A DNA stretch of 64,000 bases from a candidate division WOR-3 bacterium (GTDB taxonomy: Bacteria; Hydrothermota; Hydrothermia; B15-G9; WFZT01): assembly GCA_027053075.1 (NCBI GenBank), contig JALUEE010000047.1:11155-75154 (forward strand). Direction: 5' to 3'. Below the pieces are notes generated by a model. The model was not told the DNA's origin, searched no databases, and saw only the letters and a list, made by a program, of their open reading frames with translations. The stretch's first letter is position 1; the number at the start of each line of letters is the position of its first letter. A program made the translations under genes and the position numbers. Below are positions 2,195 through 45,087 of this stretch, piece by piece.

Positions 2195-2210
2195 TTCCCC
2201 ACGACAAAGT

Positions 2211-2285: not shown

Positions 2286-2314
2286 CTTTAAAAACTGCTA
2301 AACGGAGGGGTTTG

Positions 2315-23890: not shown

Positions 23891-24349
23891 CTCCCGTGGT
23901 TTTTTTGGTAGAACCTTTTTCATAGGCTTTTTCATAGTCACCCTCCCCCACTTGCTCTGCAAGTGGAGGAGTAGTCCAGTTCCCACCTTCGAAACTAAGG
24001 AAGTTTCCCTCCCCCACTTGCCCTGCAAGTGGGGGAGGGCAAGGGAGGGGGCATTCCGCTTGAAAATTTTAAAAACTTAAGACGTTTATCTTCTTCCCCC
24101 TTGCGCAAGTAGGAATATTACTAACCTTTAAGTGACCAAAATTACTCCAACAAGTTTGGAAAAATTTTAAAAAGACACTGACATCGTCAACTACTATTAG
24201 TGGAATCCCAATCTTTTTACGACTAAAGTGTTGAAAATTCACGATTTCAATAAAAATTAAAGAGTTTTACCATCTTAGTGTCTAAATTTTATTTCCCTAC
24301 CAAAGCAAACTGCTTGCAGAATCAGCCACTTAAATTTATCATATATGTG

Positions 24350-25635
24350 TTCCGATCCTACCTACGAGGCATGGAAATTATCATCCACCTGAACGTCCCA
24401 TGAAGCAGAATCAAGTTCCGATCCTACCTACGAGGCATGGAAATGAAAAATTCGGAATCAATTGCCCTGTAAGTGAATTGTTCCGATCCTACCTACGAGG
24501 CATGGAAATATTGGCCTTGTTCCTGCAGAAAACATAAGAGTGTCTTTGTTCCGATCCTACCTACGAGGCATGGAAATTTGAGATTGAGAAGTAGCCGTCA
24601 GTAGTGGAGATAGGTTCCGATCCTACCTACGAGGCATGGAAATTCCCCATATTCAGCTCGATATAGTTTTTTCAATTCGTTCCGATCCTACCTACGAGGC
24701 ATGGAAATTACCTCCTTTTATTTTAATTATCCCTAAACCTAACGTTCCGATCCTACCTACGAGGCATGGAAATGCTTTGACTGATTGAGGTATGTGGAAA
24801 GTAAGTAAAGAGTTCCGATCCTACCTACGAGGCATGGAAATTTTTGTTTATAATCCCTTTCATAACATTTCTCCTCGTTCCGATCCTACCTACGAGGCAT
24901 GGAAATGCGATCTTCTCAGAGAAATACGGGAACTAAAAGAGGGTTCCGATCCTACCTACGAGGCATGGAAATGCAAAAGTCCCAGGTAATTGCCCTGGAG
25001 AATCCCTTGTTCCGATCCTACCTACGAGGCATGGAAATCTCCGTTGCCGGCTAATCCGAATGCAAGGGTATTGGTTCCGATCCTACCTACGAGGCATGGA
25101 AATTAGATATCGAGAAGATTCTGAGGCTTCCGGTGTATTGTTCCGATCCTACCTACGAGGCATGGAAATCATTTCTATTTTCTAACTTGGGTTTCACAAA
25201 TTTTTCCCGTTCCGATCCTACCTACGAGGCATGGAAATAAACCAATATCACCAAATCCTATATAATCATGACTTTCGTTCCGATCCTACCTACGAGGCAT
25301 GGAAATGAATAGACTATAAAAGCCCAGCCGTTTTGAGTTGGTGTTCCGATCCTACCTACGAGGCATGGAAATTATGTTTGGAAACATGAAATAAAATGGT
25401 ATAAGAGAGTTCCGATCCTACCTACGAGGCATGGAAATCCGGAAGACCCAGAAAAGATAAAGGAACTTGATGTAGTTCCGATCCTACCTACGAGGCATGG
25501 AAATACGGTTTTATCCACACCGTACACGGAGTTTGACAGGGTTCCGATCCTACCTACGAGGCATGGAAACTCCAATCCTCTTTTAAGACAAATACATACG
25601 GCAATGTTCCGATCCTACCTACGAGGCAAAAAATT
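24350..25635 (+). CRISPR. CRISPR array, 20 repeats of 30 bp (GTTCCGATCCTACCTACGAGGCATGGAAAT), 19 spacers of 34-39 bp
   Basis: - The period is exactly 65-69 bp.
- Repeat 19 ends in C instead of T.
- Repeat 20 is degenerate (..GAGGCAAAAAATT), which places the leader at the 24.1-24.35 kb AT-rich side and transcription on the + strand.
- The repeat starts GTTCC.AT like the P. furiosus type III/I repeats; the predicted 8-nt crRNA tag is AUGGAAAU. Confidence 0.95.
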
Positions 25636-25714
25636 TGGTCTATCTTCTCTGACTCATTGACCTTCTGAGATTGCTTTGAAGATAAAAAATTTTGGGATTT
25701 TGAAACGTCCTCCA

Positions 25715-25755
25715 CGCGGTTTTGCCCACAAACGAAGTTTGTGGGCAAAACCGCG
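25715..25755 (+). terminator. perfect 18-bp hairpin with CGAAG loop immediately after the terminal CRISPR repeat
   Basis: CGCGGTTTTGCCCACAAA-C-GAAG-TTTGTGGGCAAAACCGCG. It has no U-run, so it may act as a pre-crRNA 3' boundary or REP-like element rather than a classic terminator. Confidence 0.4.
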
Positions 25756-25849
25756 AAAATACATTCACCCCACCATCAAAAACTATCCCTTCCCATCCCT
25801 CCACCTCCAATTCTTGTTTGAAAGCTCCCCATTCGTTAGAATTTTCGAC

Positions 25850-29876: not shown

Positions 29877-29892
29877 TGGCAGAAAAATTGCA
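29877..29892 (+). promoter_or_regulatory. sigma-54 promoter TGGCAG-N5-TTGCA upstream of the cytochrome gene
   Basis: It matches the -24 GG / -12 GC consensus (TGGCAC-N5-TTGCW). An AAGGAGG RBS lies ~17 nt downstream, and the ATG is at 29924. Confidence 0.65.
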
Positions 29893-29923
29893 TCTCACTC
29901 TCCGACAAAAGGAGGTGAAGTGT

Positions 29924-31921: not shown

Positions 31922-31950
31922 GGGGGGCGCCTCCTTCGGAGGCGCCCCCT
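31922..31950 (+). terminator. intrinsic terminator GGGGGGCGCCTCC-TTCG-GGAGGCGCCCCC plus a T-run
   Basis: It lies between the convergent cytochrome gene and the TM-CARF gene. A canonical U-run follows on the + strand. Confidence 0.7.
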
Positions 31951-32017: not shown

Positions 32018-33040
32018 TTAATCAATGACAGGAATATCCATTTCAGTGACGTCAATTCTCACGAGACTTTTATCACCGGACTGTCTCACATACTCAGCCT
32101 GTCTATCTCCCACCACAGCCTCAAGAATCATTGCTGATGATACCATCGCGGTCCCACCGGTTATATTAAAACTAATATCGCTATCTTCATAATTTTTGAG
32201 ATTTTGCAGCAACCTATCTAATTCAATCTTAACGTCTCTGAAATCACTGACATCAACAACTCTGGACTTTTCTATGATCAAATCTCCCGTGGTAATTCTT
32301 TTTTCGAGATGTGGAATAACCTTCAGAAATTTTTCAAAATCAGCAAAATGTTCTTTTGCTTTCTCTGATAATATGACAATAACCCCTTCAAGAATGTGAT
32401 TTTCGTGTATAATTGCTCTCAACGCCGGTGTCCAGTTGCCGGGCAAGTCTTTTAAAGTTTCCTCTTTAGGTATTGCCGGGTTACCCAGTTGCCGTAATTT
32501 TTCTTGAAGAGATTGAATCTGTTCAAAGGGCTCACTGCTGGGCAAACTCAGTGCAAAGATAAGAACTTTTCTGGGGAGCGGTTTATCGTGGGCAGGTTTT
32601 TCTTTTGGCTCGAACAAACAATTGATGTATAGTAGAGGCAATAAAAACAGAAACAAGATTGCCAATATGAATGTCAGAATGTGATGCCAGAGTAAGCCCT
32701 TATTGTAATCCGGTGTTAAAACAAGTATCCCTGCATCCCTCACACTATCAAATACCCAGGAAATCTGGAATAAAACACTCAGGAAAATCCAGATGGACAG
32801 GTATCTATAAATTTTCTTTAACCCTTTTCGCGGTGGCTCTTTTAGAAAGTTACGAAGGGCATCTGTGAGGCCAATAGATTTGTCCTTATATTTATACATC
32901 AAGATGGTTATTGCTGAAATCAAAAGGATAATCAATAAAGTTTGGCCTAACGCCATAAAGGAGAGTATAAATGGGAAAACGCTTGAAAAGGCCAAAAGTG
33001 CAATTATGAACAGTATCTTTAAAAATTCCCTGAAGCTCAA
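32018..33040 (-). CDS. CRISPR-associated membrane protein: 4 N-terminal TM helices plus C-terminal CARF-like domain (Cam1-like architecture)
   Basis: TM helices lie at about residues 8-30, 33-49, 80-98 and 120-142. The C-terminal Rossmann-like domain has a beta1 motif KVLIFALSLPSSEP and the CARF signature NITGGTAMVSSAMILEA (compare DxTGGTK). It is the last gene of the cas operon and overlaps the upstream stop (ATGA). Confidence 0.5.
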   Translation of the reverse strand: MSFREFLKILFIIALLAFSSVFPFILSFMALGQTLLIILLISAITILMYKYKDKSIGLTDALRNFLKEPPRKGLKKIYRYLSIWIFLSVLFQISWVFDSVRDAGILVLTPDYNKGLLWHHILTFILAILFLFLLPLLYINCLFEPKEKPAHDKPLPRKVLIFALSLPSSEPFEQIQSLQEKLRQLGNPAIPKEETLKDLPGNWTPALRAIIHENHILEGVIVILSEKAKEHFADFEKFLKVIPHLEKRITTGDLIIEKSRVVDVSDFRDVKIELDRLLQNLKNYEDSDISFNITGGTAMVSSAMILEAVVGDRQAEYVRQSGDKSLVRIDVTEMDIPVID

Positions 33041-33042
33041 TT

Positions 33043-33429
33043 TTATATCCTTCTCATTTCTCTGAACTTTTCTCTGATGCTCTGGAGATTTATTATTTCT
33101 GCAACCTCAAATTTTGGAGGGGTAGAATTCGGAACCGGCTTCAATCTCACTACAGGTGGGAAATATCCCATCAAACCATGAAGTGCTGCAAGGAGGGTGA
33201 CAGCAATAAAATTAAAGGCTGGTGGAACTATTATAATCGGCCGTGTCTGCCACTCCTCAGGTGTCAGGTTACACGCCTCAATAAGATCTTTCACCTGCTC
33301 CTCAAAAGACTTTTCATTATCAAAAAACACTGGAATCTGCCTTATCTCCTCAATCTCCTCATCTATCAATTTCCTGATCTGCCCCACCTGCTCCTCAGTT
33401 AGTGGATGAGAAAAATTAAGCACGAGCAT
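33043..33429 (-). CDS. hypothetical 128-aa protein embedded in the type III cas operon
   Basis: It has no recognisable motif and is acidic at the N-terminus. It is translationally coupled to the TM-CARF gene. A 134-bp gap upstream could hold an internal promoter. Confidence 0.45.
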   Translation of the reverse strand: MLVLNFSHPLTEEQVGQIRKLIDEEIEEIRQIPVFFDNEKSFEEQVKDLIEACNLTPEEWQTRPIIIVPPAFNFIAVTLLAALHGLMGYFPPVVRLKPVPNSTPPKFEVAEIINLQSIREKFREMRRI

Positions 33430-33563
33430 GGTTACTTTAAAATTTTAAACACTCCATATCCCTGATTCCCTTTTGCTCCAACACCTATGTTTTCAAGGGC
33501 AAATTCGAGAAATCTTTATCCCAGAATATTGAAAAAGTATCTATAAAAATAACCTTCCCGTTA

Positions 33564-34421
33564 TTATGATTTAATTGGTCGCCATAAACCATTATCCAAT
33601 ATTTCAAAGTAAACATCTTGATCGCTATCCACCTTTGTTCCTGGTTTCCAAGTCAAGCCTTGTGTATAAATACGCTGTAAGTACCTGCCCTCCAAAACTT
33701 CAAAATCTCCTTTAAATTTGAAGTGCGGGTCTGGCATTATATGACCAAATGCTATATTGGATTTTATGCGTGGATTTGTATGATTCAGTTCCACTTCGTA
33801 ATCCAAAAAACGAGAAGCTTCCGGATGTTTCACGAGTTCAATATGACCAAATCCGTAGCGGGTATCTGCTCCTACCATCAGTTTCTTTATTGAGAAAACT
33901 TGGTTTTGAACACTCTCATCGGCAATAAACACATACCCCACCATGAACATCTCGGGAGGTGGATAATGGTTACTAATTTGCCAATAAGGTTGAATGCACT
34001 CTAATTCGCGAAGTGTCCCTTCCTCAGCACTATCTGATTTGGGATCAATGGATGTGGAGGGAAACGAATACAGAATTTTTGATTTGAAGTCTCTGTTTGG
34101 CTTATCATCATTTGGAGTGTCTTCCCTTTTCCAAACGAGTCCATCAGAGTATTCTGAATACCACATAGCGTATTCATCGCCAATTTTTTCGGCTGGGAAC
34201 AGATAGGAAAATCGGACATTTTGTAGCAAATTTTCACCAATCGAAATATAATCCGGGAAACTACTTCCTGCCGTATCCCGTGATAACTCGGCTGTTAATG
34301 CTCCCCAAATTGTCCTTGCTGGTATGTATAAGCGGGTTCTGTTCAAAATTCCTGCTGGTGCCGTGCCGATATTTATGGGTGATTTTACCTTCCAGACCCA
34401 TCGGAACATCTTCCATGCCAT
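33564..34421 (-). CDS. cmr3: Cmr3-like (Cas5 group) subunit
   Basis: The N-terminal motif YIPARTIWGAL is present (compare IPGSS.kGAL), as is the G-rich loop GADTRYGFGHIE. Confidence 0.7.
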   Translation of the reverse strand: MAWKMFRWVWKVKSPINIGTAPAGILNRTRLYIPARTIWGALTAELSRDTAGSSFPDYISIGENLLQNVRFSYLFPAEKIGDEYAMWYSEYSDGLVWKREDTPNDDKPNRDFKSKILYSFPSTSIDPKSDSAEEGTLRELECIQPYWQISNHYPPPEMFMVGYVFIADESVQNQVFSIKKLMVGADTRYGFGHIELVKHPEASRFLDYEVELNHTNPRIKSNIAFGHIMPDPHFKFKGDFEVLEGRYLQRIYTQGLTWKPGTKVDSDQDVYFEILDNGLWRPIKS

Positions 34422-34427
34422 AATTTC

Positions 34428-34781
34428 TCACCCCTGTTTGGCCTTCAAGTGATAACGAGCATACGAGAATGCGGTGCGTAGAAGGTCTCGAGCAAAAAGT
34501 AAATCATCTAAATCTTTGGAGTTTGCTAAGAGCTTTATTGCTTCCAAAATATCGTCCGTAGTATCCAAGCGATTTCCGAAAATGGTCTTGAGAAATTGCA
34601 GAGATTCCGATCTAACCTCTTTAGCTACATTGTTATTCTTGGCCTTGAGATATAGAAACATCGCATACGGGCCTTGCTCTTCCAAAACAGTCAAGGCCTC
34701 GTTGACAAGATTTTCATCTATGCCAGAAATCTGGGCTATCTCACGGCCCAATTCGGCACACTGAATGTCCAAATTTTTCAT
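34428..34781 (-). CDS. cmr5: Cas11 small subunit (Cmr5-like)
   Basis: It is an alpha-helical protein of about 118 aa that follows cmr4. The MKNLDIQ start was chosen to avoid an 80-bp overlap with cmr4; the ORF-track start is 34904. Confidence 0.55.
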   Translation of the reverse strand: MKNLDIQCAELGREIAQISGIDENLVNEALTVLEEQGPYAMFLYLKAKNNNVAKEVRSESLQFLKTIFGNRLDTTDDILEAIKLLANSKDLDDLLFARDLLRTAFSYARYHLKAKQG

Positions 34782-34824
34782 TTGAGCTTCACTCACGGCT
34801 TTCCTCCTCGTTTGGTTCAGAGGC

Positions 34825-35856
34825 CTATGACGGATTAGATTGTCTCTGAGCGGGTTCAACGCAATCAATATCTTGGGTTCCGGGCGATTCATTCTCATGC
34901 ACAACTTCTACGCGTCCCATGCCTCGAGTGCCCATGCCGCCGATGCCCAAGTGTTTGAGATAGGGGTGAGCCTGGTGGGTTACCTCATGCACCCTTTCTG
35001 GAGAATACATTCGCTGACCACCATCCAGAATGACGCCTATCTCCTGTCCACCTATTCTAAAATGCTGAGGATTCTTTGCGATAATTTCCCACACCAGGAC
35101 CGTGGATCGAGGCAGGGCTTCGTAAGAGAAGAGAGCCCTTTCTTCGGCAGCACCAGTTTCGGGATTGATGGAAACCGAGGTGCGCACTTCCAAATTGCTG
35201 TTGACGATGTGGGCGAAGAGGCGGTCAGGCACCAAAGCAAGGCGGTTTTGGATGTAATCTGGGATACCCAGGCCTTGCAATTTAGTTTTAATATCATTCA
35301 TTTGGGCACACGCTTGCACAGGCAGCAATAACCAACCCAAGTTAAGAGGGTTGCCCGAGTTTGATTCAAGGTAAACGGCATTTTCCTCCACCCCCTGCAC
35401 ATTCAAACCTATAAAACGCAAGGTCTGAGGTGCAGTCACCCACATGGGGCCTTGACGGGTAGCGACAGGGAAGAGCAGCAAATGGACATCAGTAAAGGCG
35501 GCCAAGCCTGCAAAACCGCCTTCCTGCCCTGCACCACGGGCGAAACCAAAGACAGTGCAAACGGGACAGTCAGGTTGGCGACAATGCCCATGATCCGCAT
35601 CCAGCCCTAACCCGGCGCAATCGGGGTAAAAAGGTTTATCTCGGTTCGGAAATTGTGCTGTCCGATTTTCTTCAAAATACATCGCCACATAGGCCCGATA
35701 CACTCCAGCTAAGCTGGACCCAGGAATTTTAGGCACCTGGGTGACCGGGTCGCGCACAATAGTCAAATCTACCCGACCGATGCGGGTCCCACCGGTGCCC
35801 ACATGAATAGGGTCCAGAGCCAGACCAACCTGCAAGAATTTTTTGTAACTAGACAT
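34825..35856 (-). CDS. cmr4: Cas7 backbone subunit (Cmr4-like) with CxxC..CxxC insert
   Basis: The N-terminus is LALDPIHVGTGG...RDPVTQVPKIPGSSLAGVYR, followed by a zinc-finger-like segment CRQPDCPVCTVFG. Confidence 0.7.
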   Translation of the reverse strand: MSSYKKFLQVGLALDPIHVGTGGTRIGRVDLTIVRDPVTQVPKIPGSSLAGVYRAYVAMYFEENRTAQFPNRDKPFYPDCAGLGLDADHGHCRQPDCPVCTVFGFARGAGQEGGFAGLAAFTDVHLLLFPVATRQGPMWVTAPQTLRFIGLNVQGVEENAVYLESNSGNPLNLGWLLLPVQACAQMNDIKTKLQGLGIPDYIQNRLALVPDRLFAHIVNSNLEVRTSVSINPETGAAEERALFSYEALPRSTVLVWEIIAKNPQHFRIGGQEIGVILDGGQRMYSPERVHEVTHQAHPYLKHLGIGGMGTRGMGRVEVVHENESPGTQDIDCVEPAQRQSNPS

Positions 35857-35869
35857 TATTTACCTCCTT

Positions 35870-38800
35870 TCAAACATTTTCTTTAAGGACTATTGTATGC
35901 CAATCTATCGCCCATTGGAGTAATCTCTGTTGGGCAGAGTCTATGAGGGTTTCAAGTGCTGTGCCCCTGACCTCTAAATGGTGCACAAGCATGGCACGGA
36001 GAGTATCTTCCCACAAATCTTTTGAAACGGCTCGTTGCCCCTCGGGTGTTTGCCATTCCTTTTCCAAACGCCCAAGTTCTGTTCTAAATCTCTGAAGAGC
36101 CGTTTGGCTTGGGACAACTTTCTTTAATAGGTTCCATATTTCGCGCATTTGCTCCCAATCTTCCAAGTAATGTAAATCTGGGTTAGAGAAGCGAGCGGAG
36201 GTGCTTCCCATGAAGAGGATGGTTACACGCGCTGTGGATACTTTTACACCATCACCTGGACGAAGGTCCGATACATGACGGTAAACACGGCCATCCTTTG
36301 GATGGCGAAAATCTCGGGGAAAACGAAGTTGTCGATCCTCAATTACCATGTAAGGATAGAACACATCATCTCGCCCATCAGGCATAGCAGTAGGCACTAT
36401 CTTTAAGATGCTCTTGCCGTCTTCCAGTTTTAAGCGGAGGACTACCACACCTGCTTGTCGTTCCACTTCTTCCACCTGCCATGTTTCCTCCTCTCCTTTC
36501 AGTTCTTCTTCCATTTTACGTGTTGCTCCGATCACGGCCTGATAGGGCAACATTCGAGGGAATGCGACCACGCCTATCCGTAAAGGAAGCCGATCCCACA
36601 CGCGGGAGAAGTGTTCCTTCCACCAGGAAACAGCTATATCCACACATTCGGAGGCCGCTTCCAATGGCACCAGCACCCGAAAACGAAGTGGAGAGACTTC
36701 TACCGGAATGACCGGGTGATACAAGCTCAAGTGCGCATGAGGCTGACGCAGCTCATTCACATGGGTAACAGTCATAGGACGCTCCTGACCAAAGGTATCT
36801 TCTTCTTCCAGCCTAATTTGAGCACCCTGAAAGGAACTCGATTGCTCTTCTGGCCGTAGCAATCTACCCAGATTGGAAGCCGTCACAAAACCTCCCAGGC
36901 TACGCACATAGACCAGGCTAATCTGCCGACCTTCCCAACGGCCATTGTAAAGGGTCAGGTCTCGCCAATCGTTATTGTCGTCTGGAACCAACACCAAGCG
37001 TCGGACACGCCAGCAATTTTCGCTGCGAGCCGCTATCTGCCGAAATTCCTTCAGCAAGTCATGGAAGAACTCCTCGGCCTCCCGCCAGAAGCGATAGACA
37101 CGGCCAGGTGAGGGAAGCTTGCGGAAGAGTTGATGCGCAAGCCAAGCAGCTCGCTGGTCGTCATTCAAGATACCCCATGTAGGTGCATCGGTACGATCCT
37201 CTACAATTTTACGGAAAAAAGTTGGCCAGTCATTTTCATACTTGTAACCCTCTTGAAGGTTGGCAAGCAATTGGTCGTTTTTATCGAATTTAAAATGCTG
37301 TGGATTTTGTGGATCGCGAAACCTTTGTTTTAGCTCGTCAATCAGCTTATCCATAGAGCCTGTGGGGGCAATAGGATTAGGTTGACCTGAAAGGACCAGG
37401 TTAAATCTCACCCACTCCGGTATTGCTTGTACCCGCAGGCTATCCACACGGCTGCCATTGAGCCAATCTTCAAGGTCCAGTGAGAATGTTAGCAAAGCCA
37501 GGCGGCCGTTGCGGTCAGCCACCTCCTCGAACCAGATGGTGTCGTAATCCAGTTGCCCCTGAAGCCATGCATCTCTTCGATGGTGGCGCCGCTCGCGGCA
37601 TACCGCGCATGGCTTACCCTTGTTGGTGGGATCACCGTTTAGTCGCACACGGCAGACGGGACACACATGACCACGCGTCTCTGAAGGAGCCCTCCAATGA
37701 ACATCCCACTGCTTGTGAACAGGGACGGCCACTACCAGCTTGGACTCTTTAAGCTCCCTAACAATGGGTACCAATGAACGGGTCGGCTTACTCAGGCGCA
37801 CAAAGGGCGGGGTTTCCAGTTCCAGATTACGGGCGATTTCTTCTACTTGATCTTGGAGCCATCCATTCCATCCTCGGAGCCGGGATGCGAAGTTCTCTTC
37901 ATCAAACTCAAAATTCGGATCTCTCCGTCTTTGACGTTCCTGTTCTTCTTCATCGAATCTCTCGCCGGGAAAAGAAAACACGGCCATGCTGCTGTCTCGA
38001 TAAAGCAAAGAGCCTGCAGCAATGTCCACCTCCACCAATTCAGCTACACGACGGAAAAATTCGTCAATGGCACCTTGAGCACCTGTCCAGTCACCAATTT
38101 TTACCGCGCGGGCTTCGTAGTGCTCGGTCCCAAGGGCGATAGTGAGCAGGCGCCAGCGGGTATTGCTTTTGGTAAAATTATTGATAGCCAATTTCTCATC
38201 TTTCGATAGGTCATCGAAGGACTTCTCTTTTCCTTTCTTTGTTCTAAGGTTTATACCCAATTTGGTAGCTATGCTCTTCCAGTTCCAAGGAAAACCCTTA
38301 TCGAGCAACGCCCCAGCCACCGCGCTCTTAAATAGAGCCGCAGCCACATAGGACTGGTCCCACAAGGTAACATCGTTGTTGGGCAAACGCGTCTCGGCTA
38401 AGGTGGACATAAAAGCTCTTCGGACAAAAGATTTTTCTCCGATAGCTCTATTCCGCCAGTCTTGCCAATGAGCTACATCTGACACACCTCTGGTTCCTAA
38501 GTCCCGCAACTCCTCCAAAACTCGCCGGATTTCTCCCACCAATTGCTGCCAGCCCTGTGGAGTCAATAGTTCAGGTGGATTGGCCAGCAGGTTACGCTTT
38601 GGGTGGCCCCAAGGTGAGGAAAGCCACATGTGAGGAATGGTTTGCTTAAGATAATCTGAGGTAGAAGTAGGAAGGTTTTTCTCGACGCCAGAGACAATAC
38701 CATGTCCTGCTTGGAGTAATCCCAAAAGACCAGGGTTACGTCCTGCATGTTGTTCAATAAACGTAGAAAAAGAACCTGGCCATGCATTATTGGGTATTCC

Positions 38801-39028
38801 ACTCCCGTATAGCCGTTTTACCCATTCTAATAAGGTATCCCATGGAAAAGGTGGCGTTTCCAAATCATGCCAATGTCGTTCATCGTAGCCGTTGTTCTCG
38901 CCACCATGACGGCGTAAAAATTCAATTCGTGCCTTTCCAGCCATGTGAAACCACCCAATGGCCTCCATTGCTAAGAGTAAAGGGCGATGTTGCCGTAAAG
39001 TCTCAGCCGGTGAGAAAGTGCTGCTCAT
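35870..39028 (-). CDS. cas10: Cas10 large subunit: HD-like N-terminus, treble-clef Zn finger, palm domains without a GGDD cyclase motif
   Basis: - It is ~1050 aa.
- There is a possible HD motif (H..RHWHD).
- The zinc finger is CPVCRVRLNGDPTNKGKPCAVCRER.
- The palm beta1-like segment is LALLTFSLDLEDW.
- No GGDD/GGDE/GDD occurs anywhere in the protein.
- A start at 39028 gives a 4-bp overlap with the cmr6 stop. Confidence 0.65.
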   Translation of the reverse strand: MSSTFSPAETLRQHRPLLLAMEAIGWFHMAGKARIEFLRRHGGENNGYDERHWHDLETPPFPWDTLLEWVKRLYGSGIPNNAWPGSFSTFIEQHAGRNPGLLGLLQAGHGIVSGVEKNLPTSTSDYLKQTIPHMWLSSPWGHPKRNLLANPPELLTPQGWQQLVGEIRRVLEELRDLGTRGVSDVAHWQDWRNRAIGEKSFVRRAFMSTLAETRLPNNDVTLWDQSYVAAALFKSAVAGALLDKGFPWNWKSIATKLGINLRTKKGKEKSFDDLSKDEKLAINNFTKSNTRWRLLTIALGTEHYEARAVKIGDWTGAQGAIDEFFRRVAELVEVDIAAGSLLYRDSSMAVFSFPGERFDEEEQERQRRRDPNFEFDEENFASRLRGWNGWLQDQVEEIARNLELETPPFVRLSKPTRSLVPIVRELKESKLVVAVPVHKQWDVHWRAPSETRGHVCPVCRVRLNGDPTNKGKPCAVCRERRHHRRDAWLQGQLDYDTIWFEEVADRNGRLALLTFSLDLEDWLNGSRVDSLRVQAIPEWVRFNLVLSGQPNPIAPTGSMDKLIDELKQRFRDPQNPQHFKFDKNDQLLANLQEGYKYENDWPTFFRKIVEDRTDAPTWGILNDDQRAAWLAHQLFRKLPSPGRVYRFWREAEEFFHDLLKEFRQIAARSENCWRVRRLVLVPDDNNDWRDLTLYNGRWEGRQISLVYVRSLGGFVTASNLGRLLRPEEQSSSFQGAQIRLEEEDTFGQERPMTVTHVNELRQPHAHLSLYHPVIPVEVSPLRFRVLVPLEAASECVDIAVSWWKEHFSRVWDRLPLRIGVVAFPRMLPYQAVIGATRKMEEELKGEEETWQVEEVERQAGVVVLRLKLEDGKSILKIVPTAMPDGRDDVFYPYMVIEDRQLRFPRDFRHPKDGRVYRHVSDLRPGDGVKVSTARVTILFMGSTSARFSNPDLHYLEDWEQMREIWNLLKKVVPSQTALQRFRTELGRLEKEWQTPEGQRAVSKDLWEDTLRAMLVHHLEVRGTALETLIDSAQQRLLQWAIDWHTIVLKENV

Positions 39029-40044
39029 GGCGTACCTCCTTTGGTTAGCCAGTTTTGAACTTCCTGCCAGAGTTCGTCGCGAGTATCCTTTTCCACGCTG
39101 CCATGAGTTTTGTGGAAAGCGCGCCACTTTTTGATTTCCGCTGTGCCCCAGCCCACAGTGCGCTTGGCGGAGATCCCATAGGGAGTAAGCAAAGTTTCAA
39201 TAGCTTCAAGCAGTTTTGGGAGTACATCCACAGGTTTTGCCTCTGGCTCCATACCGGGCCAGGGCGCGTAAAGTAATGAAAGTGTTCCTTCGGCTCCCTC
39301 AACTTCCTCTCTTTCTTGGGTTCCATCAGACTTTTTCTTCACCTGTATCGTCCGTCCAGGAACCACTTCATAGTAAATAGGTTGGGTGCCAGCGCGATTG
39401 GTACGACTATGTGGGTTGATGACCTCGAAGCCGATCTTGTTGAACCACGTGGGGTAGAAGACCAGAGCGCCCTGGTGGAAGTTTTTCTCTTCCTTCTTCT
39501 CGTTACCAAAGAGATGCTGAATCCAGTCCGGATCCCACCAGCCATCTATTTTGCCATTGTGTTGTTCCAGATATTCCATCAGTCCTTCGTGCATTCTACA
39601 GGCCCATCGCAGCATGCCTTTACAAGAGGAAGCCGCCATAAATGGCACGCCAAAGACCCGGTCTTTACGCACAGGGTTGTCCATCACATGGAAAATTCGG
39701 TCATCACGGGAATACCAGGGAGTGAGTAGTTCAAAATCCACCTGAAGAGCAAGCCAACGATCAGATAATAGCGTGGAAAAGTCAATTTGTAGTCCTGGAT
39801 ACAACTTGACCGGGAATCTCCGAGGCACTTTTCCCATGTATTCCTTACGGAGCCTCGTTTTCTCCCGCTCCGCCTGACGTTTTCCCTGTCTGTCATTTGT
39901 CTTTTCCGCTTCTAATCGCTTGATTTCAGTCTTCAAGAAGCATTTGAAAATATGATCGATAAAACCTCCGGCCAGCCTCCAAGCCACCGGAGTGTTTTCC
40001 AATGGTTCGCAAGTCTCAAGAAAGATGAAGTAATCCCAAGTCAT
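39025..40044 (-). CDS. cmr6: Cas7 family subunit (Cmr6-like)
   Basis: Motifs GVPFMAASSCKGMLRW and HLFGNEKKEEKNFHQGALVFYPTWF are present, with a C-terminal G-rich loop GWGTAEI. Confidence 0.65.
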   Translation of the reverse strand: MTWDYFIFLETCEPLENTPVAWRLAGGFIDHIFKCFLKTEIKRLEAEKTNDRQGKRQAEREKTRLRKEYMGKVPRRFPVKLYPGLQIDFSTLLSDRWLALQVDFELLTPWYSRDDRIFHVMDNPVRKDRVFGVPFMAASSCKGMLRWACRMHEGLMEYLEQHNGKIDGWWDPDWIQHLFGNEKKEEKNFHQGALVFYPTWFNKIGFEVINPHSRTNRAGTQPIYYEVVPGRTIQVKKKSDGTQEREEVEGAEGTLSLLYAPWPGMEPEAKPVDVLPKLLEAIETLLTPYGISAKRTVGWGTAEIKKWRAFHKTHGSVEKDTRDELWQEVQNWLTKGGTP

Positions 40045-41267
40045 GAATTTTCCTCCTGTTTGAACAATCGTTCCATAATTTGCTCTCCTGTAATGAAATC
40101 CTCATTCGGATTAAAGTCCTGCCAAATTTGCCCCAAGCGGCGCTTCATTTCTTCAAAATCCACTAAACCCGGCTTCACAAAGCCAAAGGTGCGGCGTGCT
40201 TCTTCTGGATGTTCGAAACTGAACACTTTTTTGCTTACCTGTTGACTACCCGCAAGCCAGTGATTAACCTCGTTATCTCGCCAGAAGTTCTGCGCTTGGT
40301 TCTTCCGCATATTCCTTCCAATGACAAGATTATATGTACTTTTGGTGAACGATTGCCTTGCCAGATACCGTCCTTTCACGAACCAGAAGTTTTGCAACGA
40401 GGCCCAGGCAAAATCTTGGTCGTTAAAGCTCTTTCGCCACCGTTCCTGTTTTACATATGCTTCTGCTTGCTGCAGAGTGCAGCCAACTCCTTGAGGCCGC
40501 TCCTCAACCGTGATGAGCCCGAAATCCTGATGGTGTCTCTTTCCGGCCCAAGCATTGATCTCCCGAGTTTCATTGTCCCTTCGCACTTTGATTTTGAGAG
40601 GTTCACCATGCGGTTTTCCACTAAGGAGGTTTTCAAGGTCAAGAAGACGAGTCACCAATGTGCTATCAACTTCCAGGATTACATCGCCTTCTTGTAACTG
40701 GAGCCCCCGCCGACTGTGTCGCACTTTTATCTGCCCGCTTGAATCGTCCAGATCATCGGCGCCAAGATCAGCGATTCCCCATTCATCTGACGGCTTGAAC
40801 ACCGTTTTCCCACCCAAGGCCCCGTATTCGGCAATAAGGTGGATGGTTGCATCCAGCAGACACCATTCTTCTGGATGAATAGGTCGCAAAGGGATGAAGC
40901 GTAGGATAAAAATATTACTCCCGTTGTCGTCATTATCTACCTTGATCTGATTTTGGATGACCTTTTTTCCATATTTGTCCACCACCATAAGCCGGAACTT
41001 GCGTGCCCAACCAGTGCAACCGAAAAGTTCACAAACCACGCAATGGTGGCCAGGTTCATGTGGCTGTTTGTTAGGAGCTGGGCAACGAATTTCCGACGCC
41101 GTCGGGTCACAAGCCTTCCCACCCAATCCTCGAACTAACACCTCGAACCACCAGCGAAGTGAACCCATTATACCGGTCAAGATCGTTCTTTCCCCACGCC
41201 TTGAAGCATCCCCTGTGAATATCGGGGTTAGCGCTTTTAACTTCCATTCCTCCCATTCTTTACTCAT
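40041..41267 (-). CDS. cmr1: Cmr1-like RAMP (Cas7 group) with Zn finger and an inserted PDZ-like domain
   Basis: - The RAMP N-terminus is LTPIFTGDA...GSLRWWFEVLVRG.
- The zinc finger is CPAPN..HHCVVCELFGCTGW.
- The first G-rich loop is GALGGKT.
- Residues ~165-240, GLQLQEGDVILEVDSTLVTRLLDLENLLSGKPHGEPLKIKVRRD, align with the PDZ core (GL.aGDvI..vnG..v.s...l...l.....G..l.l.v.R). Confidence 0.6.
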   Translation of the reverse strand: MSKEWEEWKLKALTPIFTGDASRRGERTILTGIMGSLRWWFEVLVRGLGGKACDPTASEIRCPAPNKQPHEPGHHCVVCELFGCTGWARKFRLMVVDKYGKKVIQNQIKVDNDDNGSNIFILRFIPLRPIHPEEWCLLDATIHLIAEYGALGGKTVFKPSDEWGIADLGADDLDDSSGQIKVRHSRRGLQLQEGDVILEVDSTLVTRLLDLENLLSGKPHGEPLKIKVRRDNETREINAWAGKRHHQDFGLITVEERPQGVGCTLQQAEAYVKQERWRKSFNDQDFAWASLQNFWFVKGRYLARQSFTKSTYNLVIGRNMRKNQAQNFWRDNEVNHWLAGSQQVSKKVFSFEHPEEARRTFGFVKPGLVDFEEMKRRLGQIWQDFNPNEDFITGEQIMERLFKQEENS

Positions 41268-41506
41268 TAGGATATCTCCATTTTTAAAATAACCTGTAAG
41301 GACAAGAGAATAACGGTTTCATCAGGAAATAAGCATTTCGGGTATAGGGAATCATGGCTGTAGAAATTCAAGAGATAAAAAGTCTCTGTGAACCAGAATC
41401 TCATTGCGCCTCTTATCGAGGCGGGGCGGAGTTCGGGCTCACCCTCTGGGTCAGCTCCGCCCATAAACATTGGGGTTAAGACTTTTAGTTTGAAGGTGGT
41501 TTTCAT
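41267..41506 (-). pseudogene. 79-aa ORF consisting of a Cmr1-type RAMP N-terminal motif followed by unrelated sequence; probable duplicated/decayed cmr1 fragment
   Basis: The first half of LTPMFMGGADPEGEPELRPASIRGAMRFWF is a textbook Cmr1 N-terminus. No continuation exists in any frame. It has its own GGAGG RBS, and its stop overlaps the start of the full-length cmr1. Confidence 0.45.
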
Positions 41507-41543
41507 AGTCCCTCCTTACCCATTCGCAAAGAATGGGATTTTG

Positions 41544-42302
41544 TTAATCCTTATTTCTCACCACTTCGATCATGCCGAAGCCCTGGCTGTTTTTGGCTCC
41601 CAGGCCCGCATTGTAAGCAAGCATAAACCAGGGCTCGGGCAGGCTTAATTCATATATTCCTACCCAACCCTTAACAATGACGCCTTTAAACTTCGTTATT
41701 ATCTCGTTGTGCTTCTTAACCTTTACGGGCTTTATATACCCCTCAATTGGTGGGATGTCGTTTTTGGAGAAGTAAGCTTTGGCCTTGCGACGGAGGTTAT
41801 CAAAGATCAATTCTTCAAATTCTTTCTCGAAGGGACTAAAGTAATAGGTCTTTCTCTGTCCATCGGACGTGTATAAAGTTCGATAAACTGTTATCGGAGA
41901 GATTGCTTTAATTTTCATAGGTCCCGAGAGTTTGAAAGGTCTCTCAACCTCAATTGATACGAGATTGCATTTAGCTGAGCCGATTCTTACCACCCCTTCC
42001 TTAACCAGTGTAGCTGCGAAAGATTCGAGAATCTCAATATCAACAGATGAAATCTTAAACCAAACTCGCCCCTCAAAAATCAGCTTTTTGCTTATCGGAT
42101 CATACCTTCTATTTTCACCGAAGAGTCTTGAGAAGGTGTATAACTTGAATCTTCTCTTTCCAAATTGGTAGCCTTCATCATGTACCCATTCAGCGAGCTT
42201 CTCTTTGATGTTGTTGAGGATAAAACTCTGGATGATGTGGTTGTAATTGACGGAGATTCTAAGGATTCCGTTCTCTGGCTCAAATTTTACAATTAATCTC
42301 AA
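41544..42302 (-). CDS. cas6: Cas6 pre-crRNA endoribonuclease
   Basis: The C-terminal G-rich loop is GLGAKNSQGFGMIE, and the size (252 aa) fits. It uses a TTG start with an AGGAGG RBS. It is the first gene of the operon, below a 340-bp AT-rich promoter region. Confidence 0.85.
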   Translation of the reverse strand: MRLIVKFEPENGILRISVNYNHIIQSFILNNIKEKLAEWVHDEGYQFGKRRFKLYTFSRLFGENRRYDPISKKLIFEGRVWFKISSVDIEILESFAATLVKEGVVRIGSAKCNLVSIEVERPFKLSGPMKIKAISPITVYRTLYTSDGQRKTYYFSPFEKEFEELIFDNLRRKAKAYFSKNDIPPIEGYIKPVKVKKHNEIITKFKGVIVKGWVGIYELSLPEPWFMLAYNAGLGAKNSQGFGMIEVVRNKD

Positions 42303-42644
42303 AACATCCTCCTACTTGAAACCTATTTTAATAGTTCGTTAACCGTACTTGCAAGTAGCAGGATGACATCGTTGTGAAAAGTTATAAATTGCTGGTTTTG
42401 TAGAGATTCTCCATGCGCACGAAGTGGGGGAAAATTTATCAATATATTTCAAAGCTTAGCGCTTTATAGTGATCGATAATTCCTATTATTCAAACAAGTT
42501 TGATAACGAGTGGACTTTTATGCAAGAAGGCGAATATAATTTCAGTTTGAAATTGTGTTGGGTAAAGGATGCTTTGAATGTAAACTTACCCTTCATAAGC
42601 GTGTATAGGAAAAAATCCCGCGCTGCGGGATAGGAGGTTGTCAG

Positions 42645-44297: not shown

Positions 44298-44339
44298 CAG
44301 GTTATGAAGATGGGACCTGTTCGAAAATTTCTTATTGGG

Positions 44340-44412
44340 CATTAAATCTTATTGATATCTTTCACCATTCTCCCCTAACCCCTCCTTCCTCAAGGGAGGA
44401 GGGGAATTTGGA
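44340..44412. repeat. partial copy of repeat family A (CCATTCTCCCCTAACCCCTCCTTCC..GGAGGAGGGGAA)
   Basis: It is near-identical to the second half of the elements at 19340-19420 and 47330-47385. Confidence 0.5.
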
Positions 44413-45087
44413 CTTGCAATGAGCTAAACGTGATAGATGCAGGGTCAAAAGGGGATCGTCTTGCGAAAGGATTTTCTAACCAACAAAGATATCCACAGAA
44501 TCTTCCTCTCACCACGTAAATACTTGCGGGGATAGGATTGAGGTGAGGGGCAACAACTTAATTTTTCAAGATTTCAAGTGGAATGCCCCCTCCCTGAATC
44601 CCTCCCCCGCGCATCGCGCGGGGGAGGGGTGCCTTTATGTGTATGCTACACAAGATTCGCTCGTGAGGGAATGACACTTGCCACATAGACGGAGTTTCAG
44701 CTTCCCTGAGTAAATTTTCTTGTGTAGAGAGAAATCAGGGGAGAATGGGAAAAATTAACTATCTTTAGGTCGTCTAATAGAGCGATATTCCTAAACATGC
44801 ATAAAATACCAATAAATTTATCCATTCCACCCCACCCCTCCCTTCCAAAGGAAGGGAGGGAGTTTTGCTACTTGTCGTGCCTGGAGAAAGTTGTTTAACA
44901 TCACTTCCATACGCTACATAATAGCAAGGGGGACATTTTTGAACAGGCTCATCCTGTATGGCAAACTCTTAGGGATAGCTTCCGATTCTTTTCTACTTCG
45001 AAATTTCAAACCCTGCTTGACATTCTTCCCTCTCTTATTCCATCAACAGGGAAAAGAAACTTTCATAAATTCAAGTTTCTGACCCTA

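What the first reader, a model, noticed from the sequence alone, without database searches (positions are those of the whole stretch)
32018..42302. Type III-C-like cas operon (cas6-cmr1'-cmr1-cmr6-cas10-cmr4-cmr5-cmr3) extended by two unusual 3' genes
- Ten tightly coupled minus-strand genes run from 42302 to 32018, with 4-bp overlaps throughout.
- The Cmr module order (cmr1, cmr6, cas10, cmr4, cmr5, cmr3) together with a Cas10 lacking any GGDD motif matches the rare subtype III-C.
- Unlike described III-C loci, this one adds a PDZ-bearing Cmr1, a decayed Cmr1 fragment, an unknown 128-aa protein and a TM-CARF protein.
- No cas1/cas2 are present in the window, so spacer acquisition must be supplied elsewhere.
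Basis: partly seen in the sequence, partly recalled or inferred. Interest (0 to 1): 0.7.

Follow-up and report, generated by a model that had tools for sequence, protein, structure and literature searches.

The report
Type III-C cassette swapped into III-B locus
This is a real type III-C CRISPR operon that replaced an older type III-B gene set and left two scars; the two "extra" genes are a cyclic-nucleotide sponge (Csx15) and a membrane sensor kept from the old system, although the new Cas10 has no recognisable site for making that nucleotide.

Summary
All ten minus-strand genes exist at the stated coordinates. The core is subtype III-C: Csx11-type Cas10 with no GGDD motif, order cmr1-cmr6-cas10-cmr4-cmr5-cmr3.

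The "unknown 128-aa protein" is Csx15, a characterised cA4 sponge / slow ring nuclease. The "TM-CARF" protein has four predicted membrane helices plus a CARF domain, like Cam1 in design.

These two genes are not an extension of III-C. They form a fixed two-gene cassette that in 12 other contigs has no III-C module beside it; the seven of those with readable upstream sequence have a III-B module there, cyclase-intact where cmr2 is readable.

The window carries two scars of such a III-B module:
- The 79-aa "decayed Cmr1" holds the first 39 codons of a III-B cmr1.
- The 134-nt "intergenic" gap before csx15 holds the last 25 codons of a III-B cmr6.

So a III-C cassette replaced a III-B cassette inside a conserved frame. 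A sister contig has the same chimera with a longer cmr6 remnant.

The accessory genes stayed under purifying selection after the swap (dN/dS 0.07-0.21). They probably answer to cA4 from another type III system, which I could not test.

Only two gene junctions overlap by 4 nt. No cas1 or second type III module is in the window; cas2-sized ORFs were not scanned.

The parts
41544..42302 (-). cas6, the pre-crRNA endoribonuclease. It belongs to the conserved frame, not to the swapped cassette.
   Evidence: TIGR01877 scores 127 bits against a cut-off of 58.65, and PF01881 plus PF21350 match. It is 96.6% nt-identical to a second scaffold from the same sample, L086. dN/dS against L086 is 0.07.
41267..41506 (-). 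Left scar: a 79-codon ORF. Its first 39 codons (window 41390-41506) are the 5' end of a canonical III-B-type cmr1. The rest is junction sequence that runs into the III-C cmr1 start with a TAATG overlap.
   Evidence: TIGR01894 (Cmr1) scores 37.8 bits against a cut-off of 28.65, on residues 7-43 only. Window 41487-41390 is 84% nt-identical to codons 8-40 of an intact cmr1 that follows a 69%-identical cas6 in L087 and L088. The same 79-aa stub, 95% identical, precedes the III-C cassette in L174 and L175.
40041..41267 (-). III-C cmr1 (a Cas7-like RAMP protein) carrying an inserted PDZ domain at residues 163-244 (window 40536-40781).
   Evidence: PF03787 scores 76 bits and PF13180 PDZ_2 scores 32.6 bits against a cut-off of 27. 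The alignment shows a clean 82-residue insertion after KPSDE, present in this window, L004 and L049 and absent from the 9 other genome-collection loci aligned; Cmr1 lengths across all 54 loci point the same way. The sister contigs L174/L175 fetched later also carry it. About 4 of the best 150 cluster representatives also carry it.
39025..40044 (-). III-C cmr6 (RAMP / Cas7-like).
   Evidence: PADLOC Cmr6 scores 209 bits and PF03787 scores 60 bits. It lies directly upstream of cas10 in the related loci.
35870..39028 (-). Cas10 large subunit of the Csx11 / III-C family. It has no cyclase GGDD motif, and the HDxGK signature reads HMAGK.
   Evidence: TIGR02682 scores 285 bits against a cut-off of 249, and PADLOC Cas10c 'CAS-III-C' scores 384 bits. 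There is no GGD[DE] in 21 family members. The CxxC...CxxC zinc finger and the HMAGK motif are invariant. The top 40 PDB matches of the AF2 model are all Cas10 chains; the best is AfCmr2 9x25_B, E 2.5e-5.
34825..35856 (-). III-C cmr4, the backbone Cas7 that cleaves target RNA.
   Evidence: TIGR02580 scores 113.6 bits against a cut-off of 87. An Asp lies in the N-terminal GTGGTRIGRVDL loop, where the Cmr4 catalytic Asp is expected from my own recollection of the family.
34428..34796 (-). III-C cmr5 (small subunit, Cas11).
   Evidence: PADLOC Cmr5 'CAS-III-C; effector_SS' scores 101 bits. The gene call on the source contig gives 122 aa with a GTG start.
33564..34421 (-). III-C cmr3 (Cas5-like), the last gene of the inserted cassette.
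   Evidence: PADLOC Cmr3 scores 243 bits over its full length. It is 85% identical to the L174 cmr3 but only 34-46% identical (one partial hit 55%) to the cmr3 of other III-C loci.
33432..33509 (-). Right scar: the last 25 codons plus stop of a III-B cmr6, lying in the apparent intergenic gap between cmr3 and csx15.
   Evidence: One frame reads LEFALENIGVGAKGNQGYGVFKILK*, which matches the C-terminus of the intact Cmr6 of L083 and L169. Six III-B contigs (L083, L169-L173) align to the window from 33508/33509 downward and no further. L174 keeps 117 codons of the same remnant.
33043..33429 (-). csx15, a CARF-like cA4 sponge / slow ring nuclease. First gene of the conserved accessory pair.
   Evidence: NF040560 scores 167 bits against a cut-off of 35. 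It matches solved Csx15 structures 9teu (E 2e-19), 9tet, and the Csx15 domain of Cash, 9ylu (E 4e-23). dN/dS is 0.044 against L083 and 0.07 against L174. Function is taken from PMC13148439.
32018..33040 (-). Membrane CARF protein with four predicted TM helices and a C-terminal CARF domain. Putative cA4-gated membrane effector, Cam1-like in design.
   Evidence: PADLOC CARF_2M scores 82 bits and CARF8--CARF_TM scores 66 bits. The AF2 model (pLDDT 76) has helices at 3-26, 31-50, 74-108 and 114-142, and a Rossmann-like domain at 158-330. The best Foldseek matches are the cA4-binding CARF domains of Cami1 and Cam1, probability 0.97-0.99. The ITGGT motif is invariant. dN/dS against L083 is 0.14.
31922..31950 (.). 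G+C-rich hairpin between the convergent TM-CARF and cytochrome genes; the likely end of the operon.
   Evidence: 13-bp stem with 11 G-C pairs followed by a T run. The same hairpin follows the TM-CARF gene in L083.
24349..25635 (+). CRISPR array: 20 repeats of about 30 nt (GTTCCGATCCTACCTACGAGGCATGGAAAT) with spacers of about 36 nt. An A+T-rich leader lies on the 24348 side and the last repeat is degenerate. It is the presumed source of crRNA for the operon.
   Evidence: Repeat family found; 19 exact copies of the 29-nt core are counted. An array with nearly the same repeat (27-30-nt matches at 96-100%) lies directly after the TM-CARF gene in L083. No other array or cas gene is in the window.

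Best explanation
The locus is a chimera made by cassette replacement.

History (inferred from the scars and from related contigs):
1. The ancestral arrangement was cas6 - cmr1-cmr2-cmr3-cmr4-cmr5-cmr6 (III-B, with a GGDD-bearing Cmr2) - csx15 - TM-CARF - CRISPR array.
2. The stretch from cmr1 codon 40 to about cmr6 codon 229 was replaced by a complete III-C cassette: cmr1(PDZ)-cmr6-csx11-cmr4-cmr5-cmr3.
3. A later 218-nt deletion in this lineage trimmed the cmr6 remnant to 78 nt.

How it most likely works now:
- Inferred from family membership: Cas6 cuts the array transcript, and the III-C complex binds crRNA and cleaves complementary RNA through Cmr4.
- Shown at motif level only: the Csx11-type Cas10 has no GGDD motif, and its HDxGK signature reads HMAGK. 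From that I infer that this complex makes no cyclic oligoadenylate itself.
- Csx15 (a cA4 sponge / slow ring nuclease) and the four-helix membrane CARF protein form a cA4-responsive effector-plus-damper pair inherited from the III-B predecessor.
- Both genes are intact, are probably co-transcribed with the operon, and have stayed under purifying selection since the swap.
- The most likely reading, which is inferred and untested, is that they respond in trans to cA4 made by a cyclase-active type III system elsewhere in the genome. The III-C complex itself would add only RNA-targeting interference.
For: Subtype: Csx11, III-C Cmr5 and the other III-C models match. The gene order is conserved in about 70 Csx11 loci. 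The Cas10 fold is confirmed.

Left scar:
- The stub matches only the first ~40 positions of the Cmr1 model.
- It equals codons 1-39 of the intact cmr1 that follows cas6 in L087 and L088.

Right scar:
- Window 33509-33432 encodes the C-terminal 25 residues of the III-B Cmr6 of L083 and L169.
- Six III-B contigs from at least five samples align to the window only from that point onward.

The accessory pair is a unit with III-B partners:
- Csx15 (69-96% identical) directly precedes the TM-CARF homologue in 12 other contigs (L080-L085, L169-L173, L091), none of which has a III-C module. Five are too short upstream to type (four unmatched partial ORFs, one with nothing readable upstream). The sister chimera L174 also keeps the pair.
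- Cmr2 carries IYAGGDDILAF in L081 and VVYSGGDDTLFL in L169.
- None of 80 metagenomic Csx15 loci has a Csx11 gene.
- Of 78 Csx11 loci, only this one has the pair.

The chimera is not an assembly artefact:
- The same chimera appears in independent assemblies from other samples, L174 and L175, at about 86% nt identity.
- L174 has a longer cmr6 remnant of 117 codons.
- The window's own Cas10 is found on two separately deposited contigs.

Selection after the swap, window against L174:
- csx15: dN/dS 0.07 (dS 0.38)
- CARF half of the TM-CARF gene: 0.21 (dS 0.21)
- III-C genes: 0.2-0.38

No terminator-like site lies between cmr3 and csx15.

Literature:
- III-C lacks cyclase sites and known effectors (PMC11229360) and has very few ring nucleases (PMC12409355).
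- Csx15 binds cA4 (PMC13148439).
- Cam1 is a cA4-gated membrane CARF effector (PMC10808066).
- Sharing of components in trans between type III loci has been proposed (PMC11229360).
Against: - The rest of the genome is not available, so a cyclase-active partner system is assumed, not shown. Nothing of the kind lies in the 64 kb.
- The purifying-selection signal could be imported. The identity profile against III-B strains is mosaic, with blocks at 100%. The accessory alleles may therefore be refreshed by recombination from strains in which they work with III-B.
- In L174, csx15 carries a +2 insertion in a C-run. If real, it argues for decay after the swap. If an error, it says nothing.
- L086 joins the same stub, at the same nucleotide, to a third kind of module that starts with an HD-type Cas10. 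A single illegitimate recombination event does not explain that.
- Lack of cOA synthesis by Csx11 rests on the missing motif and on the literature. There is no biochemistry and no solved III-C structure.
Confidence: 0.8

Rival explanations
1. The accessory genes are stranded relics. After the swap, csx15 and the TM-CARF gene have no activator in this genome and are kept only by inertia, or by repeated recombination with III-B-bearing strains. They do nothing for the III-C system.
For: - The Cas10 has no cyclase motif, and no second type III system is in the window.
- The sister chimera L174 shows a frameshift in csx15 and a very divergent TM half in the CARF protein.
- Blocks 100% identical to a III-B strain suggest allele import.
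- Surveys find almost no effectors or ring nucleases with III-C (PMC11229360, PMC12409355).
Against: - Both genes are intact in the window.
- dN/dS between the two chimeric lineages is 0.07 for csx15 and 0.21 for the CARF half, over dS 0.2-0.4. Neutral decay would not give this.
- The L174 frameshift lies in an 8-C homopolymer on a single assembly and may be an error.
Confidence: 0.25
2. Native functional coupling. The III-C complex itself drives Csx15 and the TM-CARF protein. This would need a nucleotide signal made at a non-GGDD site in Csx11, or direct protein contact, for example through the PDZ domain on Cmr1.
For: - The accessory genes sit in the same operon with no terminator between, and they stay under purifying selection in two III-C-bearing lineages.
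- Both chimeric lineages carry the rare PDZ-Cmr1.
- One other III-C locus, L022, has a TM-CARF gene of a different subfamily nearby.
- The Csx11 palm regions keep invariant acidic residues, for example D519 in LDLEDW and E611/D612.
Against: - The pair was there before the III-C cassette, as the scars show.
- Elsewhere the pair sits with GGDD-bearing III-B modules.
- 0 of 80 Csx15 loci have Csx11, and only this one of 78 Csx11 loci has the pair.
- PDZ-Cmr1 occurs in L004 without these genes; L049 breaks off inside cas10, so it says nothing either way.
- There is no GGD[DE] in any of 21 Csx11 proteins.
Confidence: 0.06
3. Metagenome misassembly: the III-C cassette was wrongly joined to cas6 and csx15 sequences from another strain.
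For: The window comes from a metagenome scaffold. Closely related strains with other arrangements co-occur in the same samples.
Against: - The same junctions are seen in independent assemblies from other samples and pipelines, L174 (ENA) and L175 (Logan).
- The identical Cas10 lies on two deposited contigs of 82 kb and 148 kb.
- The junctions are not at shared repeats. Homology to III-B simply stops there.
Confidence: 0.02

Closest known systems
Subtype III-C CRISPR-Cas (MTH326-like; Csx11-type Cas10)
   Same: It has a Csx11 large subunit with no GGDD motif. The gene order is cmr1-cmr6-cas10-cmr4-cmr5-cmr3, and the Cmr5 is of the III-C type. There is no adaptation module next to it.
   Different: - It carries cas6 and lies about 6 kb from a CRISPR array.
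- Its Cmr1 has a PDZ insertion, seen in only a few percent of relatives.
- It is flanked by remnants of a III-B cmr1 and cmr6.
- It is followed by a cA4 sponge and a membrane CARF protein. Published surveys report no known effectors and very few ring nucleases for III-C.
Type III-B (Cmr) loci with the csx15 + TM-CARF accessory pair (L081, L083, L169-L171)
   Same: They share the same csx15 and TM-CARF pair (TM-CARF 47-94% identical to the window's in the full-length copies). L083 also has the same terminator hairpin and the same CRISPR repeat. The intact cmr1 that matches the stub follows a 69%-identical cas6 in L087/L088; the cas6 side of the III-B contigs themselves is not covered.
   Different: Those loci keep the full cmr1-cmr6 set, including a Cmr2 with an intact GGDD cyclase motif. 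Here that set is reduced to 39 codons of cmr1 and 25 codons of cmr6.
Cam1 (cA4-activated membrane protein 1; Baca et al. 2024, PMC10808066)
   Same: An N-terminal membrane segment is fused to a C-terminal CARF domain with no enzymatic domain. Cam1 CARF structures are among the best structural matches.
   Different: NhCam1 is 206 aa with one TM helix. This protein is 340 aa with four predicted helices. No sequence-level match to Cam1 was found. Its ligand and its effect on the membrane are untested.
Csx15 ring nuclease / cA4 sponge (Chi et al. 2026, PMC13148439)
   Same: It matches the family model over its full length and matches the solved Csx15 structures. It has the same size, about 128 aa.
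   Different: The characterised CRISPR-linked example sits in a III-A locus with an active cyclase. This one sits behind a Cas10 that lacks the cyclase motif.
Modular exchange of CRISPR-Cas functional modules (Vestergaard, Garrett and Shah 2014, PMC3973734)
   Same: Near-identical flanking modules are combined with different interference modules in related strains.
   Different: Here the exchange is between two type III interference cassettes. Both breakpoints can be read at nucleotide level, and the exchange separates a signalling effector from its signal generator.

Membership tests
Subtype III-C CRISPR-Cas | Large subunit of the Csx11 family (TIGR02682) | tested here: met
   285.3 bits against a cut-off of 248.95, covering 12-1038 of 1053 residues. 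PADLOC Cas10c 'CAS-III-C' scores 384 bits.
Subtype III-C CRISPR-Cas | Cyclase (GGDD) motif of Cas10 absent | tested here: met
   No GGD[DE] or G[GSA]D[DE] in the palm regions of this protein or 20 homologues. This is motif-level evidence only, with no activity test.
Subtype III-C CRISPR-Cas | Gene order cmr1-cmr6-cas10-cmr4-cmr5-cmr3 | tested here: met
   The order is seen in the window and in about 70 Csx11 loci from the genome collection.
Subtype III-C CRISPR-Cas | Large subunit has the Cas10 fold (palm domains plus zinc finger) | tested here: met
   AF2 model, pLDDT 70. The top 40 PDB Foldseek matches are all Cas10 chains, best E 2.5e-5 with probability 1.0. The four zinc-finger Cys residues are invariant. 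A sequence profile finds no solved relative.
Cas10 HD nuclease | Conserved HD dyad in the N-terminal HDxGK signature | tested here: inconclusive
   The signature reads FHMAGK in all 21 sequences. A second H-D pair (residues 55-56) is present here but in only 9 of the 21 sequences.
Csx15 | Match to the family model and to solved Csx15 structures | tested here: met
   NF040560 scores 166.9 bits against a cut-off of 35, full length. PDB matches are 9teu (E 1.9e-19), 9tet (E 2.7e-5), and the Csx15 domain of CbCash 9ylu (E 3.6e-23).
Csx15 | cA4 binding with head-to-tail oligomerisation; slow or absent ring-nuclease activity | not testable with these tools
   These are biochemical properties reported for PfCsx15 and CliCsx15 (PMC13148439).
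Cam1 | N-terminal transmembrane segment plus C-terminal CARF, with no enzymatic domain | tested here: met
   The AF2 model has four helices at 3-142 and a CARF-like domain at 158-330. PADLOC 'CARF, 2 TMs' and 'CARF_TM' models match.
Cam1 | Sequence or fold membership with characterised Cam1 (one TM helix, about 206 aa) | tested here: inconclusive
   phmmer finds no Cam1 chain in the PDB. Foldseek to the Cam1 CARF domain (8t65, 8t66) gives probability 0.96-0.97, but E 0.03-0.1 and TM-score 0.44-0.48 on the target. The helix count differs (PMC10808066).
Cam1 | cA4-triggered membrane depolarisation | not testable with these tools
   This needs an experiment.
PDZ domain (in Cmr1) | Pfam PDZ model above the gathering score | tested here: met
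   PF13180 scores 32.6 bits against a cut-off of 27, residues 190-238. It is a clean 82-residue insertion relative to Cmr1 proteins without a PDZ domain.
Type III-B (origin of the two remnants) | The remnants are homologous to the ends of cmr1 and cmr6 of loci with canonical cmr1-6 order and a GGDD-bearing Cmr2 | tested here: met
   The stub equals codons 1-39 of the L087/L088 cmr1. The remnant equals the Cmr6 C-terminus of L083 and L169. GGDD is present in the Cmr2 of L081 and L169.

The most novel reading that the evidence does not exclude
A III-C complex that lacks the cyclase motif still operates a cA4-type membrane effector and its sponge. This could work through a nucleotide signal made at a non-canonical site in Csx11. 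It could also work through direct coupling, for example by the PDZ domain inserted in Cmr1. In that case the retention of csx15 and TM-CARF under purifying selection in two III-C-bearing lineages would reflect cis function. It would not then reflect trans-activation or imported alleles.
Probability: 0.06. Interest if true: 0.85.

Novelty: new variant of a known kind. Interest (0 to 1): 0.5.

Why it matters
Type III-C is the least understood type III subtype. Its Cas10 has lost the cyclase motif, it has no solved structure, and published surveys find it without signalling effectors.

This locus is a natural exception with a readable history. A cA4 effector and its sponge were separated from their signal generator by a cassette swap, yet they stayed intact and under constraint.

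That gives a concrete system for two open questions:
- Are III-C complexes truly silent in signalling?

It also shows, at nucleotide resolution and across co-occurring strains, that whole type III interference cassettes (III-B, III-C, and possibly a third) are exchanged within a fixed frame of cas6, accessory genes and array.

The PDZ-bearing Cmr1 is a rare, recurring and undescribed variant of a type III backbone subunit.

Tried and rejected
- GC and GC3 per gene as a sign of foreign origin: differences were small and uninformative.
- A profile of 21 Csx11 proteins against all PDB sequences: no Cas10 match, only chance hits. Residue-level mapping of active sites was therefore not possible.
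- phmmer of the TM-CARF protein against the PDB: nothing.
- Promoter and terminator scan of the operon: counts were at chance level. Only the terminal hairpin and the absence of a terminator before csx15 were usable.
- Rfam scan of the window: only five tRNAs.
- The apparent Csx15 in III-C locus L009 is a weak 101-aa ORF with no PADLOC match, next to a type I-A system. It is not a second case of the pair.
- The opposite direction of the swap (III-C ancestral, III-B incoming) was rejected. The truncated remnants are of III-B genes, and they sit in the III-C-bearing contigs.
- Decay of the TM-CARF gene in L174 was considered. Its reading frame is open from residue 21 onward and its CARF half is constrained, so only the csx15 frameshift remains as a possible sign of decay.
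Sigma-54, multihaem cytochrome and T9SS-type sorting domains show that it is a bacterium.

Full report
**1. What is in the window**

Ten co-oriented minus-strand ORFs occupy 32018-42302. An independent gene call on the source contig lists the same ten. That contig is ENA ERZ23495249, REYS20-1 scaffold_136, 82 kb.

Gene spacing differs from the finding. Only cmr1/cmr6 and cmr6/cas10 overlap by 4 nt, and stub/cmr1 overlap by 1 nt. The other junctions are gaps of 2 to 37 nt, and 134 nt separate cmr3 from the next gene.

Profile searches give these identities:

| Gene | Best evidence |
|---|---|
| Cas6 | TIGR01877, 127 bits |
| 79-aa ORF | only the first ~40 residues match Cmr1 (TIGR01894, 37.8 bits) |
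| Cmr1 | RAMP domain plus PDZ domain (PF13180, 32.6 bits, cut-off 27) |
| Cmr6 | PADLOC Cmr6, 209 bits |
| Cas10 | Csx11 family (TIGR02682, 285 bits, cut-off 249; PADLOC Cas10c 'CAS-III-C', 384 bits) |
| Cmr4 | TIGR02580, 113.6 bits |
| Cmr5 | III-C-specific PADLOC model, 101 bits |
| Cmr3 | PADLOC Cmr3, 243 bits |
| 128-aa protein | Csx15 (NF040560, 167 bits, cut-off 35) |
| 340-aa protein | PADLOC 'CARF, 2 TMs' and 'CARF8--CARF_TM' models |

A 20-repeat CRISPR array lies at 24349-25635 on the plus strand. A histidine kinase, a sigma-54 response regulator and a multihaem cytochrome separate it from the operon. Every other ORF of 150 aa or more in the 64 kb is a housekeeping gene or, in one case, has no Pfam match. 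None is cas1 or a second type III module. Cas2-sized ORFs were not scanned, so cas2 is judged absent only because it normally accompanies cas1.

**2. The core is a typical III-C module**

The Csx11 protein has hundreds of homologues. The 120 best listed are 53-81% identical and come from many, mostly thermophilic, bacterial and archaeal lineages.

- In 78 genome loci the order cmr1-cmr6-cas10-cmr4-cmr5-cmr3 is constant.
- None of 21 aligned Csx11 proteins has a GGD[DE] motif, while the zinc-finger cysteines are invariant.
- The place of the HDxGK signature reads HMAGK in all 21. A second His-Asp pair at 55-56 is present here but in only 9 of the 21 sequences. The status of the HD nuclease is therefore open.
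- A sequence profile finds no solved relative.
- The AF2 model (pLDDT 70) matches only Cas10 chains among its best 40 PDB hits.

This agrees with the literature. III-C has a highly divergent Csx11 large subunit (PMC3973734) with an inactivated cyclase (PMC12669027). It has no known effectors (PMC11229360) and very few ring nucleases (PMC12409355).

**3. The two 3' genes are known kinds and form a fixed pair**

Csx15 matches the solved Csx15 structures and the Csx15 domain of Cash. The family binds cA4 as a sponge or slow ring nuclease (PMC13148439).

The 340-aa protein models as follows (pLDDT 76):
- Four membrane helices at 3-26, 31-50, 74-108 and 114-142.
- A Rossmann-like domain at 158-330.
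- Its best PDB matches are the cA4-binding CARF domains of Cami1, Cam1, Sis0811 and Csx1-Crn2.
- It has an invariant ITGGT motif.

It resembles Cam1 in design but is not demonstrably a Cam1 family member. NhCam1 is 206 aa with one helix (PMC10808066), and no sequence match was found.

Only six homologues of the 340-aa protein were found among 5.8 billion proteins. A Csx15 gene directly precedes every one of them.

**4. The pair belongs to III-B loci, and the window carries the scars of one**

- In L081 the pair follows cmr1-cmr2-cmr3-cmr4-cmr5-cmr6 plus two Card1-like genes. Its Cmr2 has IYAGGDDILAF.
- In L083 the TM-CARF protein is 94% identical. The order there is cmr4-cmr5-cmr6-csx15-TM-CARF, followed by the same terminator hairpin and an array with nearly the same repeat.
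- L169-L173, from four more samples, show the same III-B arrangement, and L169 has VVYSGGDDTLFL in Cmr2.

Right junction: all six of these III-B contigs (L083, L169-L173) align to the window from 33508/33509 downward and no further. That point lies 78 nt inside their cmr6. The window's "intergenic" stretch reads LEFALENIGVGAKGNQGYGVFKILK*, which is the Cmr6 C-terminus.

Left junction: the first 39 codons of the 79-aa ORF match the start of an intact cmr1 that follows a 69%-identical cas6 in L087 and L088, at 84% nt identity.

A III-B cassette was therefore replaced, from cmr1 codon 40 to near the end of cmr6, by the III-C cassette.

The association is otherwise absent. None of 80 metagenomic Csx15 loci has Csx11. 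Among 78 Csx11 loci only this one has the pair.

**5. The chimera is real and not very recent**

L174 and L175 come from other samples and other assemblers. They carry the same stub (95% aa identity), PDZ-Cmr1, cmr6, Csx11 (81%), cmr4, cmr5 and cmr3.

L174 continues into:
- a longer cmr6 remnant of 117 codons;
- csx15 with a +2 insertion in a C-run;
- a TM-CARF gene whose membrane half is very divergent.

The window lacks 218 nt of that remnant, which I read as a later deletion.

dN/dS between the two chimeric lineages:

| Genes | dN/dS | dS |
|---|---|---|
| III-C genes | 0.2-0.38 | 0.17-0.55 |
| csx15 | 0.07 | 0.38 |
| CARF half of TM-CARF | 0.21 | 0.21 |

The accessory genes have therefore been constrained since the swap. 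One caveat applies: identity to III-B strains is mosaic, with blocks at 100%, so recombination may import constrained alleles.

**6. A third arrangement**

L086 is a 1.5-kb scaffold from the same sample as the window.
- It is 96.6% identical across cas6 and the stub.
- It diverges at the same nucleotide as the III-C junction.
- It continues into an ORF that begins like an HD-type Cas10 (LLHDIGK).

If this is real, the same junction is used by at least two different cassettes. I cannot explain that with a single illegitimate recombination event.

**7. The PDZ insertion**

Residues 163-244 of Cmr1 form a clean insertion. It is also found in L004 and L049 and in the sister contigs L174/L175, and it is absent from the 9 other genome-collection loci aligned, with Cmr1 lengths across all 54 loci agreeing. 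Four of the best 150 cluster representatives have it, and one more has a truncated version. A search of the paper library for PDZ together with Cmr1 and CRISPR returned two papers, neither on this topic by title; I did not read them. Its role is unknown.

**8. Mechanism and verdict**

Shown:
- gene identities;
- the missing cyclase motif;
- both scars;
- the III-B partnership of the accessory pair;
- the polymorphism among strains;
- the selection figures.

Inferred:
- Cas6 and the III-C complex use crRNAs from the array for RNA-guided RNA cleavage through Cmr4.
- The complex makes no cOA.
- Csx15 and the membrane CARF protein respond to cA4 from another type III system in the genome.

The main rival is that the pair is stranded and kept only by recombination. 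A small chance remains that III-C drives it directly.

Its "extension" reading is replaced by a cassette swap. This is a new variant of a known kind and is of moderate interest.

Noticed in passing
window 23650-24040: Degenerate direct repeats with a 65-75 nt period lie just upstream of the CRISPR leader. There are four copies of GAATTAAATCCAGCTCTATAACATAGTCAC-like units and two hairpin-bearing copies. They could be a decayed array with a different repeat, or a repetitive 123-aa ORF on the minus strand.
   Followed up: partly
window 25676-31837 compared with L083 3980-4160: In L083 the array trailer lies about 100 nt after the TM-CARF terminator hairpin. In the window, a histidine kinase, a sigma-54 response regulator and a multihaem cytochrome (6.2 kb) sit between the hairpin and the array trailer.
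   Followed up: partly
window 42356-45085 compared with L086 125-340: The 550-aa protein with a T9SS-type sorting domain (42645-44297), between metG and cas6, is absent from the co-occurring strain L086. There, metG lies about 215 nt from the cas6 upstream region.
   Followed up: no
L086 1305-1503: The same cas6 and stub are joined, at the same nucleotide as the III-C junction, to a different module. Its first ORF starts MESSDRREILTLGALLHDIGK, the N-terminus of an HD-type Cas10.
   Followed up: partly
window 38938-38955 (Cas10 residues 25-30) and alignment A1: In all 21 Csx11 proteins the HDxGK-like signature is FHMAGK, with Met in place of Asp. The alternative WHD at residues 54-56 is conserved in fewer than half of them.
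   Followed up: partly
loci L002-L079 and proteins P0002-P0120: The 120 best Csx11 homologues are 53-81% identical and come from distant phyla and archaea (Thermus, Ammonifex, Chloroflexus, Rhodothermus, Thermofilaceae, Methanomethyliaceae). This points to frequent horizontal transfer of the cassette among thermophiles.
   Followed up: no
window 33564-34421: The window's Cmr3 is only 34-46% identical (one partial hit 55%) to the Cmr3 of other III-C loci. Those same loci have Cas10, Cmr4, Cmr5 and Cmr6 that are 60-75% identical to the window's. It is 85% identical to the L174 Cmr3.
   Followed up: no
L022 1628-5177: A III-C locus in an Acidobacteriaceae MAG has a TM-CARF gene of a different subfamily (PADLOC CARF_2M, 95 bits), plus cas6 and cas1, upstream of the Csx11 module.
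   Followed up: partly
L174 8500-8520: The csx15 of the sister chimera has CCCCCCCC where all relatives have CCCACC. This +2 insertion shifts the frame and could be a real pseudogene or a homopolymer error.
   Followed up: partly
window 787-4279: A Pab1020-type RNA ligase (787-1878) and a LigT / 2H phosphoesterase (3728-4279) lie close together, next to a tRNA gene at 2211-2285.
   Followed up: no
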